Positions 46,349 to 52,510 of a stretch of 61,386 nt of DNA are shown here, one piece after another. The translations under genes and the position numbers were made by a program. The stretch spans positions 1-61,386 of the forward strand of contig JAJPRD010000006.1 in NCBI GenBank assembly GCA_023700255.1, written 5' to 3'. The DNA is from Candidatus Thalassarchaeaceae archaeon. Its GTDB lineage: Archaea; Thermoplasmatota; Poseidoniia; Poseidoniales; Thalassarchaeaceae. Under the pieces are notes generated by a model. The model had not been told where the DNA came from and ran no database searches. It saw only the letters and a list, made by a program, of their open reading frames with translations. Position 1 is the stretch's first letter; each line of letters begins with the position of its first letter.

Positions 46349-47164
46349 TTAGTACGCTTCATCATCATTTGGAAATTCTTTACTACGCACATCTTCGATG
46401 TACTGCTTGACTGCTCCATCAATAATTTCACCTAAATCTGCATATCGTCTTAAGAATCTAGGGCTGAAATCTTTTGTTATTCCGAGCATGTCGTGTAGAA
46501 CTAAAACTTGACCATCGCAATCCGCTCCTGCGCCGATGCCAATCGTAGGAATTGTCAAAGATTCACTTACTTTCTTAGCTAACTCAGCGGGTATTTTTTC
46601 GAATACAATAGAGAAGCAACCAGCCTCTTCTAATATCTTCGCATCTTCAAGTAATTTAGCGGCTTCATCTTGCCCCTTAGCCCTAACACTGTAAGTACCA
46701 AATTTGTATATTGATTGTGGGGTTAATCCAAGATGACCCATCACTGGAATACCTGCTTGTTGAATACGTTTTACTGATTCAACAATTTCCGAACCTCCTT
46801 CAAGTTTAACTGCATGACCTCCGGACTCTTTCATAATACGAATTGCAGAATCAAGTGCCGTTTTAGAATCACCTTGATAAGTTCCAAATGGCATGTCTAC
46901 TACTACTAGTGCCCTATCTACACCGTTAACCACACATTGAGCATGGTAGATCATATGCTCAAGAGTAATTGGAACTGTCGTCTCATTACCAGCCATTACA
47001 TTAGATGCAGAATCTCCTACTAAAATTACATCGATACCTGCAGCATCAACAAGCCTTGCTAATGAATAATCATATGAGGTTAACATAGTTATTTTTTCAC
47101 CAGAGCTTTTCATCTCTTGGAGTGTATGAGTTGTTACTTTTTTGACTCGACTGGATATGGCCAT
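46349..47164 (-). CDS. panB: 3-methyl-2-oxobutanoate hydroxymethyltransferase
   Basis: [24 protein letters not shown]. Confidence 0.97.
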
Positions 47165-47226: not shown

Positions 47227-48906
47227 CTAATCGAATTCTAATTCTTCGATACCTAATAAAAATTCATCAATTTCTAAAATCCCATCTTCATTTTCATCAG
47301 CAGCATGGAAATATTCTCTCAAAGCACCATACGGTAAATCTGATTCATGATCATCGCCTGAAAAGCCAAGTGACTCCATTGCTGAAATAAATTCTTGTAA
47401 ATTCAGATGATTATTACGTTCAGTATCGGCTGCATGGAATGCAGCCCAACGACGACGATGTTCGACCTCAGATGGATTTGTAAACATTAAACGGAATGTA
47501 TTCCAAGGAGTAATTTTTTTATTAACATGTTTTTTACCATAGGAGAGATAAATTATAGTACCCAATATTATTGCAGATGAACCTCCAATAACCGCTTTCA
47601 TACCCATTACATAGATTAAAAGTAGCCCACCAACTATCCCAAATATTTGGAAGAAGGGGAATAAAGGAGACCTCCATTTAGGATCATACCAATGAGAATT
47701 AGAGGACCTTCGTAGAACTAATACACAAGCATTTATTACAATAAATACCATTATTTTGAACCCTGAGGCCAACTCAGCAACATCATGTACTGGTAAGAAA
47801 AGAATGGCTGCTGCCATCGATAAACCTGTACCAATTATTGCCCAATGAGGTGTCTCAAATCTACCATGAACGTCTTCTAAAAAGCTTGGTAATAAATTAT
47901 CACGAGACATAGCGAAAGGAAAACGAGATGATGCCATGATTCCTGCAAGAGACATAGAAATCATAGTGAATACTGCTAAAATTGCAGCTATGGCAGCAAC
48001 GGTTTCACCTCCGACTGCTAGTGCGAAAATGTAAACTGGATCTTCTCTGCCATGAGTTCCATCTACATAGTTAGACGGATCAACTGAGACTGCCATAATC
48101 AATGTTACAAATACATATAACACTGTACTAAATAATAATGAAATCAAAATACCATAGGGCATATTTTTACCAGGATTTTTAACTTCTCCACCAACTGCTG
48201 CAATTTTTGTAACCCCTGCATAGGAAACGAAGACCAGTGCTGCTGTTGAGGAGAAAGATTGCCAATCAGGACCGAATGCCTCTCTGGATAAAGCCGCATC
48301 CCAATTTAGATCCATTGTAATCAAAGCCCAAACACAAATCAATAATAAATATGAAATAGATATTAAGACTATAGGGGTTTGAACTTTCTTAATACTTTTA
48401 ACTCCCAGAATATTAATCATCACAATGACTACTAACATAGCCATTGCTGCATAATCTAGATTAATTGTAACACCTACAATACCTTCAATAACCCATAAAT
48501 AAGCCTTAAAACCTATTAATGCAAATGCAGATTTTAACATGAAGTTAGCCCATAGACCTAATCCAGAAATGGTACCAATAAGTGGACCGAATGTATTTTC
48601 GATATAGACATAAGAACCACCAGAGGATGGCATTGCTGACGAAAGTTCTGATTTAGATATTGCACCTGGAAGAACAATTAATGCTGCAAATAAATAGGCT
48701 AACCAAATCCCACCTAATGCATCCCCTCCACCTCCAAGCTCCATCATGGCGAGAGATGGGAGGACGAATAATCCACTACCTAACATTGCAGATAATGAAA
48801 GTATAATTACTGAAAACAATCCTAATTTACGCTCTAATGCATTAGATACCTTCTCAAGTGGCTGAAGAACTATACCAATTACTTGACTCGGTGAAAGTCG
48901 ATTCAT
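47227..48906 (-). CDS. APC-family amino acid permease with C-terminal EF-hand pair
   Basis: GSGLF, GGSY, EVKNP, SRFPFAMSRD; loops DTERNNHLNLQE and DENEDGILEIDE. Confidence 0.88.
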   Translation of the reverse strand: MNRLSPSQVIGIVLQPLEKVSNALERKLGLFSVIILSLSAMLGSGLFVLPSLAMMELGGGGDALGGIWLAYLFAALIVLPGAISKSELSSAMPSSGGSYVYIENTFGPLIGTISGLGLWANFMLKSAFALIGFKAYLWVIEGIVGVTINLDYAAMAMLVVIVMINILGVKSIKKVQTPIVLISISYLLLICVWALITMDLNWDAALSREAFGPDWQSFSSTAALVFVSYAGVTKIAAVGGEVKNPGKNMPYGILISLLFSTVLYVFVTLIMAVSVDPSNYVDGTHGREDPVYIFALAVGGETVAAIAAILAVFTMISMSLAGIMASSRFPFAMSRDNLLPSFLEDVHGRFETPHWAIIGTGLSMAAAILFLPVHDVAELASGFKIMVFIVINACVLVLRRSSNSHWYDPKWRSPLFPFFQIFGIVGGLLLIYVMGMKAVIGGSSAIILGTIIYLSYGKKHVNKKITPWNTFRLMFTNPSEVEHRRRWAAFHAADTERNNHLNLQEFISAMESLGFSGDDHESDLPYGALREYFHAADENEDGILEIDEFLLGIEELEFD

Positions 48907-48984
48907 AAATCTGGGATAGAATACGACTTGTTGAAGGTTTGGCAACCCCAATTGTTAATTTTCATAGATGGCCTCAGGAGCAAT

Positions 48985-50010
48985 ATGAGAACCATGTTGG
49001 CCATCACTGTTCTCATATTACTAACCAGCACTGTAAGTGGATGTATTGGGAAAAATGACATAGATCTGAATCTTGATGATGAAGAACCTACCCCTCTAAG
49101 GATTAATCATATTCAGATGAAAGGAACTCATAATTCGTATCATTTAGCTCCTTTAATACCTACAATTAGGGCATATGATTACTCTCATCAGCCATTAGAC
49201 GTACAGGCTGAAGAGCAAGGAGTAAGGCAATTTGAAATTGACGTTTGGTGGGATGCAAGAGGACAACTCTACGTATATCATAACCAATATGATTTACGTA
49301 CTACTTGTACCACCTTTGAAGAATGTCTCAACACACTGCTTAATTGGTCTAATGAAAATACAGAACATGTACCTCTAATGATTTGGATTGAACCAAAAGA
49401 ATGGGTTGAGCAGAGTACAGACAGTACCATCGTGGTTGAATTACAAAATATGTTAGATCAAATTGAGGAAGAGATCACTCAATTTTGGCCACGTAATAAA
49501 ACAATAACTCCTGATGATGTCAGAGGTGAATCGGAAACACTTTCTCAAGCAATAATGGAAGAAGGTTGGCCATTGCTAGATGAGTCAAGAGGGAAAGCAA
49601 TATTTATTCTTCTATCAAGTGGCGATTTGAGAGAAAATTATCATGAAAAATACCCTGGACTTATTAATTCAAGGATGTTTACTATGTCAAATGATCCAGG
49701 TAGTTCGGAAGCAGCAATATTTTCAAACACCGATCCAATAGGAAATGGTGATGAAATAATTGGACTAATCAAAGATGGCTATATTGTCCGTTCAAGAGCA
49801 GATAACGCAGAGGATGGTGAAGCAGATAACAATGATACAAGTCGTTTGAATGCAGCAATATCAGTAGGTGCACATTCGATTTCCACAGATTATCCATCTA
49901 AAGTGGAAGGAATTGATTATTGGGTAGATATACCCAATGGAAACCCAGTAGCATGTAATCCAATTTCAGCACCAATTGATTGTACCTCTGAAAGAATAGA
50001 ATCACTATAA
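48985..50010 (+). CDS. Lipoprotein, Ca2+-dependent phosphoinositide phospholipase C family
   Basis: Lipobox TVSGC; GTHNSYH, GVRQFEID, IEPK, RSRAD, ISTDYP. Confidence 0.8.
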   Translation: MRTMLAITVLILLTSTVSGCIGKNDIDLNLDDEEPTPLRINHIQMKGTHNSYHLAPLIPTIRAYDYSHQPLDVQAEEQGVRQFEIDVWWDARGQLYVYHNQYDLRTTCTTFEECLNTLLNWSNENTEHVPLMIWIEPKEWVEQSTDSTIVVELQNMLDQIEEEITQFWPRNKTITPDDVRGESETLSQAIMEEGWPLLDESRGKAIFILLSSGDLRENYHEKYPGLINSRMFTMSNDPGSSEAAIFSNTDPIGNGDEIIGLIKDGYIVRSRADNAEDGEADNNDTSRLNAAISVGAHSISTDYPSKVEGIDYWVDIPNGNPVACNPISAPIDCTSERIESL

Positions 50011-50021
50011 AAAGAAAATAA

Positions 50022-50672
50022 CTAAACTTTGGCAATTACTTTCAATTCGACTGCAATGGGAGTAGGTAAAGCACTAACTGAACATGTAGTACGAGATGGC
50101 ATTATTTCTGAAAAATACTCAGCATATACTTCATTATATCCCGCAAAGTCTCTATCCATATCTACAAGCATTGAATAAACATCTACTACTTTTTCTAGAC
50201 TAGAACCATATTCTTCAAGGATTATCCTAATATTATCAATGACTGAACGAGTTTGGGCTCTGATATCATAATCTAGAGGATTACCAGATTCATCTTTGAT
50301 AGGTCCTCCCGGGATTTCATTTGTAACAGGTTTCCTTGGACCTATTCCACTAACAAAAATAAGATTACCTACTCGATGTAAATGAGGATAAGCCCCTACT
50401 GCTGACGGTCCCTCTGTAGAAATAAAGGGTCCATTCTCTAGAACTAATTTCCCAGCAGTTTTCTTACCTACAACGCCGCCAACAATTCCGCCTACAGGTC
50501 CACCAACTGCTATTCCTGCTGCTGCTCCTAATGCGCCTCCAGCAGAACTAAGTATGGATTTACCATAATCATCATATATTTTCTCAATAAATTCATCTGG
50601 AGCGAAAACAATGCCTTCGATGAGTTTACGGCGTCTTTCAAAATCCGTTAACTCATCATTGTCAGTCATCAT
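50022..50672 (-). CDS. Rid-family protein, probable 2-aminomuconate deaminase, with N-terminal glycine zipper
   Basis: GAYPH, SGIGPR, YNEVY..YF, SRTT, AVELK; operon with the dioxygenase. Confidence 0.8.
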   Translation of the reverse strand: MMTDNDELTDFERRRKLIEGIVFAPDEFIEKIYDDYGKSILSSAGGALGAAAGIAVGGPVGGIVGGVVGKKTAGKLVLENGPFISTEGPSAVGAYPHLHRVGNLIFVSGIGPRKPVTNEIPGGPIKDESGNPLDYDIRAQTRSVIDNIRIILEEYGSSLEKVVDVYSMLVDMDRDFAGYNEVYAEYFSEIMPSRTTCSVSALPTPIAVELKVIAKV

Positions 50673-51595
50673 AAGTTCCCCTTATTGAGTACATTACGAT
50701 CACCTTGATAGTATTCTACATCATCTTCATCAAACTCTTTGTCGCCGAAAGATCCGGTAGAAGGAGTAAGTTGAATCACAGCGCCACCTGAACCGTGTAA
50801 TGCTTCGTAAGCCAATACTTCACCATCGTAATTATTATGCTGTCCCATTGCCGCTGCTAACCACCAAGCGGGCTTGTAAGCAACTACTTTCTGAACTCTA
50901 ATCTGTCCATGTATCTCGCGACTTAGTTGGCTCAAATCTTCTAATCGACCATCTGCAAAAAATTCTAAAATTTTCTCATTCCATTCGTTATCCTTAGAAC
51001 TGTGAATTCTATCATCAACAGGATCAATATGTTCAGTAAACATTCTATTCGATAGACTTGAAACAACTACTATGACTGCCTTTTTACCTTGAGTAATTAA
51101 AGCATCACGAGCGGATTTACCTAGAACGATAGTTTCAGAACGGTTCGCATACATATTGCTAGAAACAATACATGCAGGTATACGATTATCCGGATTTAAC
51201 AAACTAAGTGCGACTACTGAACCAGTATCTATAGGAAATCCTTCATAATCCACTGTACGAGCATGTAGTCCTCTTTTTTTTGCTGCAGCACAGTGCTCAT
51301 GAGCAAACTCATCATCAATTTGGAAGTTATATGGCATACTTCCAAGATAATGGAAATCATCATCGACATGAGTCCAGATTGATTCTTTTAGAGCTTGGAT
51401 TTGGTGACCTACAACGCTTGGCCAGGTTGTAGAATAGACTAATATTAAATCTGCATCACTTTCTTCAATTCTTTTCCTACATGTTTCAAAAGCAGCACGT
51501 AAATTAGCATAACCTTGATTAGCATCTGGGCTAAGAAGAGGCTGTGGGTGTGGTGGGACATAAAGTCCGAATAAAATAGGAGATTCATCAGTCAT
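50669..51595 (-). CDS. 2-aminophenol 1,6-dioxygenase alpha-like subunit (LigB superfamily)
   Basis: LVYST.W, HVD, YEGFPIDTG, DRI...D..WN match AmnA/CnbCa as I recall them. Confidence 0.85.
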   Translation of the reverse strand: MTDESPILFGLYVPPHPQPLLSPDANQGYANLRAAFETCRKRIEESDADLILVYSTTWPSVVGHQIQALKESIWTHVDDDFHYLGSMPYNFQIDDEFAHEHCAAAKKRGLHARTVDYEGFPIDTGSVVALSLLNPDNRIPACIVSSNMYANRSETIVLGKSARDALITQGKKAVIVVVSSLSNRMFTEHIDPVDDRIHSSKDNEWNEKILEFFADGRLEDLSQLSREIHGQIRVQKVVAYKPAWWLAAAMGQHNNYDGEVLAYEALHGSGGAVIQLTPSTGSFGDKEFDEDDVEYYQGDRNVLNKGNL

Positions 51596-51604
51596 TTAAA
51601 CACC

Positions 51605-52510
51605 TCAAAGAACTAACTCCCTAGTATTTGTATTGGGATCCCAACATGCGATACAGTTACCAGTACCAATCACTGATTGGTAACCATAAATCTCAGCAGG
51701 ATAACTTGGAATACCCATTGCAGCCATCATCCAGATTAATCCACCAGCTTCAGTTTCAGCTATTGTTTGTTCAGTATATTCGGGCATAATATCAACTACT
51801 TCTTGCATCTGACCTTTTCTGAACATATCGATTATTTTCATATCCCAGACATATTGACTGTGATTATAGATATGTTCCCTGCTCATATCTTCGGGAAGAG
51901 GAGCCTCAGTAACGAAATGACGATGGCTTAGACTATTACTACTAATTAGAACAACTTTCTTGCCACTCTTTTCAATTGCTTTCATACAAGCTTCACCCAA
52001 CGCTTTAGCTTGTTCAATCATAACTTCGTTAGAATAGTAATGTGCATTACGGTTACTTGAAATCGTAACTATTGGTTTGTCCCATGAAGGATTTAGAAGA
52101 TGGCAAGAAGTAATTGTACCATAATCAACTCTAAAATCAGGGTTCCTCATCATTTTAGTAATAATCCCTGCCTTAGCAGTCTCTTCATGCATTGCTTCAG
52201 CTAATTCGACATCGACCTTAAGATCGTAATTATATCTAAACAAATTAGGGAATACTGGGTCCACTGATTTAGATTTGAATTCTGGAAGCCCAAGGAAATG
52301 TGTACCGATATAAGTCTGCCAATGAGGAGTGAAAATTACTATTGCATCATAATCAATTGTTTTCAACTTCCTAGCAAGCTTAGCATAGCCCCAACGCAGT
52401 GTTTCCCAGCCACCTTCACTAAAGGCTTCATTTTGAGGAGGATTATCAGCATAAACAAGATGTGGTGGGTGTGGAGCTAGACAACCAAGTACAATTTCGC
52501 CTTTCTTCAT
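51605..52510 (-). CDS. 2-aminophenol 1,6-dioxygenase beta (catalytic) subunit
   Basis: LAPHPPHLVYA.NPPQNE, GGWE.LRW, SVDP.FPN.FRY, FRVDYGTIT, LSH.HF, VIGTGN match AmnB/CnbCb. Confidence 0.92.
   Translation of the reverse strand: MKKGEIVLGCLAPHPPHLVYADNPPQNEAFSEGGWETLRWGYAKLARKLKTIDYDAIVIFTPHWQTYIGTHFLGLPEFKSKSVDPVFPNLFRYNYDLKVDVELAEAMHEETAKAGIITKMMRNPDFRVDYGTITSCHLLNPSWDKPIVTISSNRNAHYYSNEVMIEQAKALGEACMKAIEKSGKKVVLISSNSLSHRHFVTEAPLPEDMSREHIYNHSQYVWDMKIIDMFRKGQMQEVVDIMPEYTEQTIAETEAGGLIWMMAAMGIPSYPAEIYGYQSVIGTGNCIACWDPNTNTRELVL

What the first reader, a model, noticed from the sequence alone, without database searches (positions are those of the whole stretch)
50022..52510. Archaeal o-aminophenol meta-cleavage operon: possible non-canonical tryptophan/3-hydroxyanthranilate pathway
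Seen: three tightly coupled genes encoding beta and alpha LigB-type dioxygenase subunits and a Rid deaminase. The beta subunit keeps the residues equivalent to the Fe ligands (H in APHPP, H in TPHW, E in AETE) and to the catalytic Tyr and His. Known: 2-aminophenol 1,6-dioxygenases were characterised in nitroaromatic-degrading Proteobacteria, and 3,4-cleavage of 3-hydroxyanthranilate has the same regiochemistry as 1,6-cleavage of 2-aminophenol. Inference: in this probably peptide-degrading marine archaeon the heterodimer may replace the cupin 3-HAO in kynurenine-pathway Trp catabolism, or attack a natural marine aminophenol. No semialdehyde dehydrogenase gene is adjacent.
Basis: partly seen in the sequence, partly recalled or inferred. 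Interest (0 to 1): 0.8.

Follow-up and report, generated by a model that had tools for sequence, protein, structure and literature searches.

The report
Archaeal aminophenol ring-opening genes, tryptophan-linked
Three coupled genes of an abundant marine archaeon encode a 2-aminophenol ring-opening enzyme and a deaminase that look like the last steps of an undescribed way of breaking down tryptophan without the usual kynureninase route.

Summary
Window 50022-52510 (- strand) carries three coupled genes. They encode an AmnB/CnbCb-like catalytic LigB subunit (PDB 3vsg_B, E 7.6e-107, all five active-site residues kept), a ligand-less AmnA-like subunit, and a Rid protein closest to 2-aminomuconate deaminase AmnE.

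The organism is a Poseidoniales (Marine Group II) archaeon. The dioxygenase is a core gene of the order, found in 282 of 301 genomes, not a pollutant island.

Kynureninase and ACMSD-type genes were each found in 1 of 70 good genomes. No KMO was seen, and NadA is present.

The tryptophan link is supported in another form. In 7 of 7 loci of the sister order, AmnB-AmnA-Rid sits in one overlapping operon with tryptophan 2,3-dioxygenase, an SDR, a luciferase-like monooxygenase, an asparaginase-II-like hydrolase, an aminomuconate-semialdehyde-type dehydrogenase and a formyltransferase-fold protein. The window's genome holds all nine, split over three contigs. Metagenomic contigs of 43-71% GC, the GC-rich ones presumably bacterial, keep the core of the cluster.

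The most likely route is kynurenine to 2-aminophenol plus aspartate, then ring cleavage; this is inferred, not shown. AmnA and Rid are fused in many relatives. I found no description of this route in the literature searched.

The parts
51605..52510 (-). amnB/cnbCb-like catalytic beta subunit of a 2-aminophenol-type extradiol (LigB) dioxygenase, 301 aa
   Evidence: PDB 3vsg_B 7.6e-107, 8ihg_A 2.2e-104, 7txy_B 3e-101. Pfam LigB 2.5e-28. H14, H63, E252, H196 and Y130 are kept. tblastn gives 51% identity to cnbCb of pCNB1.
50669..51595 (-). amnA/cnbCa-like non-catalytic alpha subunit, 308 aa, with a conserved acidic C-terminal tail (about 35 aa) that CnbCa lacks
   Evidence: PDB 8ihg_B 6.5e-40, 3vsg_A 1e-39. 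It lacks all five ligand/catalytic residues, and its tail aligns with MGII/MGIII AmnA and with the fused forms.
50022..50414 (-). Rid/YjgF domain (residues 87-216) of 2-aminomuconate-deaminase type
   Evidence: Pfam PF01042 6.9e-24. The best PDB match is 6izh (AmnE of Pseudomonas sp. AP-3) at 4.7e-26, against 3.7e-20 for the best generic Rid. Model pLDDT is 83-97. A second, small Rid gene lies elsewhere in the genome.
50415..50672 (-). 86-residue N-terminal extension of the Rid protein; it includes a glycine-zipper stretch (residues 43-69, 50466-50546); function unknown
   Evidence: It is conserved in six MGIIb genera with split AmnA/Rid. It is absent from the MGIII and short split Rids, and a low-complexity linker takes its place in fused AmnA-Rid. 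Pfam hits are below threshold only (C19orf12-like, Gly-zipper). The model is of low confidence there (pLDDT 37-49).
47227..48951 (-). amino-acid permease (APC family) with a C-terminal EF-hand pair; a recurrent neighbour of the trio and a possible substrate importer (uncertain)
   Evidence: Pfam AA_permease_2 5.9e-45 plus EF-hand. Its homologue lies next to, or one gene from, the Rid gene or the fused amnA-rid gene in G027, G014 and G208.

Best explanation
The three genes encode a two-subunit, Fe(II)-dependent 2-aminophenol 1,6-dioxygenase and a Rid-family deaminase. The dioxygenase has a catalytic AmnB-like beta subunit and an inactive AmnA-like alpha subunit. The deaminase is of the 2-aminomuconate-deaminase kind.

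They are the ring-opening end of a nine-gene module. The module forms one operon in the sister order (MGIII-like) and is dispersed over three contigs in this genome. Its members are:
- TDO (C30).
- A formyltransferase-fold protein, an SDR, a luciferase-like flavin monooxygenase (LLM), an asparaginase-II-like hydrolase and an aminomuconate-semialdehyde-type ALDH (all on C17).
- AmnB-AmnA-Rid (this window).

Proposed flow (inferred):
1. Tryptophan is oxidised to N-formylkynurenine by TDO.
2. The formyl group is removed by the formyltransferase-fold protein, giving kynurenine.
3. The LLM inserts oxygen next to the aryl ketone, Baeyer-Villiger fashion.
4. The resulting beta-aspartyl 2-aminophenyl ester or amide is split by the asparaginase-II-like enzyme into L-aspartate and 2-aminophenol.
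5. AmnBA opens the ring to 2-aminomuconic semialdehyde.
6. The ALDH and the Rid turn this into 4-oxalocrotonate plus ammonia.

Shown: enzyme families, active-site residues, gene linkage, co-occurrence and co-loss. Inferred: the substrate, the kynurenine-to-aminophenol chemistry, the order of the ALDH and Rid steps, and everything downstream.
For: Enzyme identity.

Core status:
- AmnB-like gene in 282 of 301 genomes of the order, 65 of 66 high-quality ones, 26 of 26 genera.
- TDO in 68 of 70.
- LLM in 66 of 70.

Linkage:
- 7 of 7 fetched loci of the sister family hold TDO-SDR-LLM-AsnII-ALDH-AmnB-AmnA-Rid-FTN, co-directional and mostly overlapping.
- In 35 of 55 genomes of the order with both places listed, LLM lies within 10 kb of AmnB (from the rows).
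- In closed genome G003 the order is LLM-AsnII-ALDH-LonN-PanB-AmnB-AmnA~Rid.
- All nine genes are single-copy in the window's genome.

Beyond this class (metagenome scan): of 56 loci whose LLM is under 66% identical to the window's, 14 have at least 7 kb on both sides. Of those 14, within 9 kb:
- 10 carry AsnII, ALDH, AmnB and AmnA.
- 9 carry Rid.
- 5 carry TDO.
The 15 loci printed with the full LLM-to-Rid set have GC 0.43 to 0.71.

Co-loss: five genomes without AmnB (four at least 91% complete) have LLM in 0 of 5. TDO is full-length in one and a 97-aa remnant in another.

ALDH: best PDB matches are 2-aminomuconate 6-semialdehyde dehydrogenases, at 5e-140 for the G003 orthologue. The window genome's copy scores 546 bits on TIGR03216.

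LLM:
- The model has pLDDT 88.
- Foldseek finds luciferase-like monooxygenases at probability 1.0, including the type II Baeyer-Villiger 3,6-diketocamphane monooxygenase 4uwm.
- Bacterial members are named LLM class flavin-dependent oxidoreductase.

AsnII-like: Pfam Asparaginase_II 2.4e-45; Rhizobium etli asparaginase 7os3 at 3.5e-15, with the S-x-x-K stretch aligned.

The canonical route is missing. KynB-type formamidase is in 0 of 70.

AmnA and Rid are fused in MGIIa and in several MGIIb genera.

Contigs of four metatranscriptome libraries from four studies cover the trio at 95-100% identity and bridge both gene junctions.
Against: - No enzyme of the module has been assayed. The substrate assignment rests on gene neighbourhood and on the logic of the chemistry.
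- In this genome the three loci are unlinked.
- G025 keeps TDO without AmnB or LLM, so TDO can serve without the module.
- TDO was found next to the module in only 5 of the 14 roomy loci with LLM under 66% identical. The archaeal TDO query may also miss distant bacterial TDOs.
- The SDR has no assigned step, and no flavin reductase partner of the LLM was identified.
- Luciferase-like enzymes carry out many reactions other than Baeyer-Villiger oxidation. Foldseek TM-scores are only 0.5-0.6.
- No 4-oxalocrotonate decarboxylase, hydratase or aldolase genes accompany the module, unlike the classical clusters. Only one generic FAH-family gene per genome was found.
- RNA-library contigs cannot prove transcription.
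- The 3-HAO search had no working positive control.
Confidence: 0.6

Rival explanations
1. First reader's reading. The heterodimer replaces cupin 3-hydroxyanthranilate 3,4-dioxygenase in an otherwise canonical kynurenine pathway (Trp, kynurenine, 3-hydroxykynurenine, 3-HAA, ACMS, 2-AMS).
For: - TDO is present and core.
- An AMSDH-like ALDH and a 2-aminomuconate-deaminase-like Rid are present.
- No cupin 3-HAO was found in the genome.
- 3,4-cleavage of 3-HAA has the same regiochemistry as 1,6-cleavage of 2-aminophenol (established chemistry).
Against: - Kynureninase in 1 of 70.
- No KMO: the best FAD_binding_3 hits are geranylgeranyl reductases.
- ACMSD family in 1 of 70.
- The one genome with both (G035) carries them on contigs other than its amnB contig.
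- The conserved partners are instead LLM, AsnII-like, SDR and a formyltransferase-fold protein.
Confidence: 0.07
2. The trio degrades a natural o-aminophenol or related aromatic taken up from seawater. Its link with TDO and the other genes is regulatory or coincidental, not one pathway.
For: - In this genome the trio stands apart from TDO and from the LLM cluster.
- An amino-acid-type permease is a recurrent neighbour.
- G025 keeps TDO alone.
Against: - Nine-gene overlapping operons in 7 of 7 sister-order loci.
- The module recurs in metagenomic contigs of 43-71% GC.
- AmnB and LLM are lost together.
Confidence: 0.15
3. Variant of the best explanation, in which the steps run in a different order. 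The Rid domain, fused or coupled to AmnA, hydrolyses the enamine/imine of 2-aminomuconic semialdehyde as it leaves the dioxygenase. That gives 2-hydroxymuconic semialdehyde, which the ALDH then oxidises. Loss to picolinate by spontaneous cyclisation is thereby prevented.
For: - AmnA-Rid fusion or translational coupling occurs across MGIIa, MGIIb and MGIII.
- The ALDH's best NCBIfam model is 2-hydroxymuconic semialdehyde dehydrogenase (546 bits, below its cut-off).
- 2-AMS is unstable and cyclises to picolinate (abstract of PMC3790839 in the listing, and recalled knowledge).
Against: - The best structural relative of the Rid, AmnE, is described as acting on 2-aminomuconate, after the dehydrogenase (passages; passages for the Burkholderia enzyme).
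- The best PDB matches of the ALDH are AMSDHs.
- Classical clusters also place a RidA gene directly before cnbCb without any such claim.
Confidence: 0.15
4. A pollutant-degradation island (nitrobenzene, aniline or chloronitrobenzene type) acquired from bacteria, as for the characterised amn/cnb/nbz clusters.
For: - The closest characterised enzymes come from such clusters.
Against: - The gene is core in a whole order of small-genome planktonic archaea (282 of 301).
- No lower meta-cleavage genes are nearby, unlike the plasmid clusters.
- In the tree the five plasmid sequences form one clade (100/99) nested among module-type sequences, rather than the reverse.
Confidence: 0.03

Closest known systems
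2-Aminophenol / 2-amino-5-chlorophenol 1,6-dioxygenase AmnAB, CnbCaCb (Pseudomonas sp. AP-3, Comamonas sp. CNB-1; PDB 3vsg, 8ihg, 7txy)
   Same: - Two adjacent LigB paralogs, with beta before alpha.
- The beta subunit keeps all metal-ligand and catalytic residues; the alpha subunit lacks them.
- E about 1e-107 (beta) and 1e-40 (alpha) to the solved chains.
- About 51% identity to cnbCb.
   Different: - Archaeal host, and a core gene of the order.
- The alpha subunit has an extra acidic C-terminal tail. In many relatives it is fused to the Rid deaminase.
- No decarboxylase, hydratase or aldolase genes lie beside it.
- Its partners are TDO, LLM and AsnII-like genes instead.
2-Aminomuconate deaminase AmnE/AmnD (Rid/YjgF family; PDB 6izh, PMC6742747 passages read)
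   Same: - Rid fold.
- Best PDB match, at 4.7e-26.
- The long loop after the first strands (PGGPI..YDI) aligns with that of AmnE.
   Different: - An 86-residue N-terminal extension with a glycine zipper in this lineage, or fusion to AmnA in others.
- The gene lies after amnA. In pCNB1, the Ensifer plasmid and P. veronii a RidA gene precedes the beta-subunit gene, and P. veronii has a second one further downstream.
- Activity is untested.
Canonical kynurenine / 2-nitrobenzoate lower pathway (HAO, ACMSD, AMSDH, 2-aminomuconate deaminase)
   Same: - It starts with TDO.
- It ends with an AMSDH-type ALDH and a Rid deaminase.
   Different: - No KMO, kynureninase, ACMSD or KynB-type formamidase was found.
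- The ring-cleaving enzyme is LigB-type, not a cupin.
Actinobacterial ARO microcompartment locus with 2-aminophenol meta-cleavage genes (PMC10470539)
   Same: A non-pollutant setting for AmnAB-type genes with an unknown natural substrate. This rests on the abstract in the listing. The 7txy chains are among the best PDB matches; that 7txy comes from this study is recalled, not taken from a call.
   Different: - No shell proteins occur here.
- That paper's main text holds none of the words kynurenine, tryptophan, asparaginase, RidA, 'natural substrate' or luciferase.
Type II Baeyer-Villiger monooxygenases of the luciferase-like family (3,6-diketocamphane monooxygenase, PDB 4uwm); partner enzyme, not in the window
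   Same: The predicted TIM-barrel fold of the 426-aa partner matches this family at probability 1.0.
   Different: - Only 12-16% identity.
- The family is small and separate: 319 representatives at E up to 0.001 among 1.84 billion.
- The substrate and reaction are unknown.

Membership tests
AmnAB/CnbC 2-aminophenol 1,6-dioxygenase (LigB superfamily) | Two adjacent paralogous LigB-fold subunits, beta and alpha | tested here: met
   these are the only two LigB genes in the genome. They are adjacent, 9 nt apart.
AmnAB/CnbC 2-aminophenol 1,6-dioxygenase (LigB superfamily) | Beta subunit with the 2-His-1-carboxylate iron ligands and the catalytic His and Tyr (CnbCb H13, H62, E251, H195, Y129; this numbering and these roles are recalled from the CnbC structure paper, which I did not read here) | tested here: met
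   H14, H63, E252, H196 and Y130 are identical to 3vsg_B in a gap-free alignment.
AmnAB/CnbC 2-aminophenol 1,6-dioxygenase (LigB superfamily) | Alpha subunit lacks the ligands and catalytic residues | tested here: met
   P, T, T, N and Q/K stand at the five columns, and cnbCa also lacks them.
AmnAB/CnbC 2-aminophenol 1,6-dioxygenase (LigB superfamily) | Closer to AmnB/CnbCb than to catechol-cleaving LigB enzymes | tested here: met
   E 1e-107 against 2.8e-17 for HpaD. NCBIfam HpaD_Fe scores 101.8 bits, against a cut-off of 316.
AmnAB/CnbC 2-aminophenol 1,6-dioxygenase (LigB superfamily) | Cleaves 2-aminophenol to 2-aminomuconic semialdehyde | not testable with these tools
   Needs an enzyme assay.
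Classical amn/cnb/nbz meta-cleavage operon | Dioxygenase clustered with the semialdehyde dehydrogenase, 4-oxalocrotonate decarboxylase, hydratase, aldolase and acetaldehyde dehydrogenase | tested here: not met
   These genes are present in the pCNB1, Ensifer and P. veronii plasmid loci. They are absent from the window and from the archaeal and metagenomic module loci, apart from the ALDH.
2-Aminomuconate deaminase (Rid/YjgF) | Rid domain with its best similarity to validated deaminases rather than to housekeeping RidA | tested here: inconclusive
   6izh scores 4.7e-26 against 3.7e-20 for the next Rid, a modest margin. A separate small Rid exists in the genome. No diagnostic residues were checked.
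Canonical kynurenine pathway to 3-hydroxyanthranilate | Tryptophan 2,3-dioxygenase | tested here: met
Canonical kynurenine pathway to 3-hydroxyanthranilate | Kynurenine 3-monooxygenase | tested here: not met
   PF01494 hits are geranylgeranyl reductases or match only the dinucleotide-binding part of the profile. No KMO-specific model was run.
Canonical kynurenine pathway to 3-hydroxyanthranilate | Kynureninase | tested here: not met
   None in the window's genome (80.7% complete). 1 of 70 genomes of the order over the cut-off.
Canonical kynurenine pathway to 3-hydroxyanthranilate | ACMS decarboxylase (Amidohydro_2) | tested here: not met
   (1 of 70).
Canonical kynurenine pathway to 3-hydroxyanthranilate | Cupin 3-HAO absent or present | tested here: inconclusive
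   No hit in the window's genome, but the control genomes were silent too.

The most novel reading that the evidence does not exclude
Marine Group II and III archaea and a scatter of bacteria burn tryptophan by a third aerobic route that needs neither kynureninase nor KMO.

- A luciferase-like flavoenzyme carries out a Baeyer-Villiger insertion on kynurenine.
- An asparaginase-II-like hydrolase releases aspartate and 2-aminophenol.
- An AmnBA-Rid assembly, often one fused polypeptide, opens and deaminates the ring.

On this reading, the pollutant-degrading amn/cnb/nbz dioxygenases were recruited from this natural pathway.
Probability: 0.4. Interest if true: 0.85.

Novelty: new variant of a known kind. 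Interest (0 to 1): 0.7.

Why it matters
Poseidoniales are among the most abundant heterotrophic archaea of the surface ocean, and none is in culture. A core, expressed-looking pathway for an amino acid would bear on what they eat and on marine nitrogen and carbon turnover.

If the inferred route is right, it is a new answer to how tryptophan is degraded. It gives aspartate directly. It also gives a natural origin for the 2-aminophenol dioxygenases so far known from nitroarene and aniline degraders.

The AmnA-Rid fusion, its repeated splitting, and the glycine-zipper extension offer a handle on how cells deal with the unstable ring-cleavage products.

Public annotation is also misleading here. 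NCBI records name several of these subunits 'tRNA U-34 5-methylaminomethyl-2-thiouridine biosynthesis protein'.

Tried and rejected
- NAD biosynthesis reading (AmnBA making ACMS for quinolinate): dropped, since NadA is in 69 of 70 genomes.
- KMO hunt through PF01494: only geranylgeranyl reductases and partial Rossmann-type matches.
- 3-HAO search: no hit, but no control rang either, so it says nothing.
- Genome-contig scan with the LLM alignment: all 80 loci kept were Marine Group II, so it gave no view of bacteria. One was labelled Acidimicrobiaceae at 78% identity, probably a mis-binned contig; I did not check this.
- Downstream fate of 4-oxalocrotonate: only one generic FAH-family gene per genome. 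The HMGL-like gene near TDO looks like an isopropylmalate/homocitrate synthase. This stays unresolved.
- Rid N-terminal extension: Pfam hits below threshold only, and the AlphaFold model has pLDDT 37-49 there. No conclusion.
- No complex prediction was run for AmnA with Rid, and the report does not claim binding of the split forms.
- Literature: no paper with this route or with AmnAB in Marine Group II was found with the terms. The one paper holding 'aminophenol' and 'Marine Group II' (PMC12113859) was seen only in the listing. Supplementary gene tables of Marine Group II genome papers could list these genes, and I could not see them.
- Earlier-scan look-ups by place and by words gave nothing.
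- Metatranscriptome contigs show presence in RNA libraries, not proven transcription.


Full report
**What is there.** Window 50022-52510 holds three ORFs on the - strand:
- 51605-52510, 301 aa.
- 50669-51595, 308 aa.
- 50022-50672, 216 aa.

The first two are 9 nt apart. The last two overlap by ATGA.

Pfam finds LigB in the first two and Ribonuc_L-PSP in the third.

Against solved structures:
- The first protein matches the beta chains of 2-amino-5-chlorophenol / 2-aminophenol 1,6-dioxygenases at 7.6e-107 to 3e-101. The next LigB enzyme, HpaD, reaches only 2.8e-17.
- The second matches the alpha chains at about 1e-39.
- The Rid domain has its best match in 6izh at 4.7e-26. According to passages of PMC6742747, 6izh is the 2-aminomuconate deaminase AmnE of Pseudomonas sp. 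AP-3.

The five residues that I recall as iron ligands and catalytic His/Tyr of CnbCb are identical in the beta-like protein: H14, H63, E252, H196 and Y130. They are replaced in the alpha-like one, as in CnbCa. These are the only LigB genes of the genome.

**Whose genes, and how widespread.** The window is contig C63 of a 1.43-Mb assembly in 63 contigs, 80.7% complete. The closest proteins and loci bear the names Poseidoniales and Thalassarchaeaceae.

- The beta gene was found in 282 of 301 sampled genomes of the order. That is 65 of 66 of those at least 90% complete, and all 26 genera.
- It was found in 32 of 43 genomes of a sister family of the same class, which I call MGIII-like.

A core gene of small-genome planktonic archaea is not a pollutant island.

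TDO is in the genome and in 68 of 70 genomes of a set chosen for at least 90% completeness. The steps needed to reach 3-hydroxyanthranilate are missing:
- Kynureninase is absent from the window's genome. It passes its cut-off in 1 of 70.
- The best FAD_binding_3 matches are geranylgeranyl reductases.
- ACMSD-type amidohydrolase is in 1 of 70, the same odd genome G035.

NadA is in 69 of 70, so no quinolinate supply from tryptophan is needed. The 3-HAO search found nothing but had no working control. The 3-HAA reading is therefore unlikely.

**What the trio travels with.** After my own searches had shown TDO without kynureninase, the earlier-scan index listed eight notes on look-alike loci that propose a kynureninase-free tryptophan route. 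I treated these as leads and tested them.

I fetched seven loci of the sister family. All seven hold a co-directional, mostly overlapping cluster:

TDO - SDR - a 413-460-aa luciferase-like protein (LLM) - asparaginase-II-like - ALDH - (an alpha/beta hydrolase in two loci) - AmnB - AmnA - a 123-138-aa Rid - a formyltransferase-fold protein (FTN).

The window's genome has all nine as single copies at three places:
- AmnB-AmnA-Rid here.
- FTN-SDR-LLM-AsnII-ALDH as an overlapping - strand operon on C17.
- TDO on C30.

In the order:
- The LLM gene is in 66 of 70 genomes.
- It lies within 10 kb of AmnB in 35 of the 55 genomes for which both places were listed.
- In closed genome G003 the order is LLM-AsnII-ALDH-LonN-PanB-AmnB-AmnA~Rid.

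Co-loss: five genomes without AmnB, four of them at least 91% complete, have no LLM. Only one has a full TDO, and one has a 97-aa remnant.

**Beyond this class.**
- The LLM family is small: 319 cluster representatives at E up to 0.001 among 1.84 billion.
- It has bacterial members named LLM class flavin-dependent oxidoreductase, from Deltaproteobacteria, Micromonosporaceae and Pseudomonadota.

A metagenome scan with an alignment led by a bacterial member returned 80 loci.
- 24 resemble the window genome's C17 operon and carry no AmnB nearby.
- Of the other 56, 14 have at least 7 kb on both sides. Of these, 10 carry AsnII, ALDH, AmnB and AmnA within 9 kb, 9 carry Rid, and 5 carry TDO.
- The 15 loci printed with the full LLM-to-Rid set have GC from 0.43 to 0.71. 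One is a 774-kb contig of 71% GC with the full colinear set.

I presume the GC-rich contigs are bacterial; no call classified them.

A maximum-likelihood tree of AmnB sequences, rooted only by very long AmnA branches, shows two things:
- The five plasmid-borne classical sequences form one clade (100/99) nested among module-type sequences.
- The archaeal ones fall in a 24-row group (87/95) with GC-rich metagenomic ones.

**How it most likely works.**

Shown:
- The ALDH is of the aminomuconate/hydroxymuconate semialdehyde kind.
- The LLM model (pLDDT 88) matches luciferase-like monooxygenases, among them a type II Baeyer-Villiger enzyme.
- The AsnII-like protein belongs to Pfam Asparaginase_II. 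It aligns with Rhizobium etli asparaginase, including the S-x-x-K stretch.
- FTN has the formyltransferase/hydrolase fold.
- KynB-type formamidase is absent, 0 of 70.

Inferred:
1. TDO makes N-formylkynurenine.
2. FTN removes or transfers the formyl group.
3. The LLM inserts oxygen between the ring and the ketone of kynurenine.
4. The aspartyl ester, or the amide formed by acyl shift, is hydrolysed by the AsnII-like enzyme to aspartate and 2-aminophenol.
5. AmnBA opens the ring.
6. ALDH and Rid give 4-oxalocrotonate and ammonia.

The role of the SDR, the flavin reductant and the fate of 4-oxalocrotonate are open. Classical plasmid clusters carry decarboxylase, hydratase and aldolase genes. The module does not.

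**Anatomy of the AmnA-Rid link.** Three states were seen:
- Fused into one protein of 457-530 aa. This holds in MGIIa, in family f2 and in MGIIb genera g2, g8, g10 and g12.
- Split with a minimal Rid. This holds in the MGIII-like loci and in g11 and g12.
- Split with a Rid bearing an 86-residue extension with a glycine zipper. This holds in the window's genus and in five other genera.

The extension has only sub-threshold Pfam matches, and its model is of low confidence. Module-type AmnA also has an acidic C-terminal tail that CnbCa lacks.

The recurrent fusion argues that the deaminase works next to the dioxygenase. It may even act on the semialdehyde before oxidation.

**Expression.** Contigs from four metatranscriptome libraries of four studies cover most of the trio at 95-100% identity and bridge both gene junctions. 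This is compatible with a co-transcribed operon but is not proof, since DNA can be present in RNA libraries.

**Novelty.** The enzymes are new members of known families. The context is not described in the library searched. That context is core archaeal status, the AmnA-Rid fusion, the glycine-zipper extension, and membership of a TDO-LLM-AsnII module lacking kynureninase. Supplements were closed. The same idea was reached by earlier agents of this scan on other genomes, which is not independent evidence.

Noticed in passing
window 47227-48951 (-): APC-family amino-acid permease with a C-terminal EF-hand pair. Its homologue lies next to, or one gene from, the Rid gene or the fused amnA-rid gene in G027, G014 and G208. 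An EF-hand on a permease is unusual; it could import the pathway's substrate.
   Followed up: partly
window 48928-50010 (+): Secreted-looking Ca2+-dependent PI-PLC-like protein (PF16670, 6.5e-71) wedged between the permease and the Rid gene. It is also there in G027.
   Followed up: no
window 46349-47164 (-) and G003, G014, G208, G027 loci: panB (ketopantoate hydroxymethyltransferase) is a conserved neighbour of the amnBA-rid genes in both families of the order. No functional link is evident.
   Followed up: no
G000:C30 (L008 8546-13482) and G003 (L132): TDO, a haem enzyme, sits beside the haem A/O synthesis genes COX15-CtaA and UbiA-type in both MGIIb and MGIIa. In the window's genome an acetyl-CoA acetyltransferase lies between them.
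   Followed up: partly
G035:C29 (L133 6088-7329) and G035:C44 (L134 7123-8166): One genome of 70 has a true kynureninase (425.6 bits) and an Amidohydro_2/ACMSD-like gene, on two contigs that differ from its amnB contig. This may be horizontal gain or a binning error.
   Followed up: partly
G306:C22:109019-109264: A sister-family genome without AmnB and LLM keeps only a 97-aa fragment of TDO, which looks like operon decay.
   Followed up: no
protein records: NCBI records name AmnB/AmnA homologues 'tRNA U-34 5-methylaminomethyl-2-thiouridine biosynthesis protein', both in the archaeal MAGs and on the Ensifer and Pseudomonas veronii plasmids. This looks like a systematic misannotation.
   Followed up: no
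L066: A contig labelled Acidimicrobiaceae bacterium carries an LLM 78% identical to the window genome's. It is probably a Marine Group II contig binned into a bacterial MAG.
   Followed up: no
G000:C29:35096-35413 (-): A second, small Rid gene (ORF of about 135 aa) in the same genome, presumably the housekeeping RidA.
   Followed up: no
L041 10805-11773 (-), L045 8844-9854 (+): Two of the seven sister-family operons have an extra ORF (322 and 336 aa) between the ALDH and amnB. The L041 one is an alpha/beta hydrolase (PRK10985-like, 180 bits); the L045 one was not scanned.
   Followed up: no
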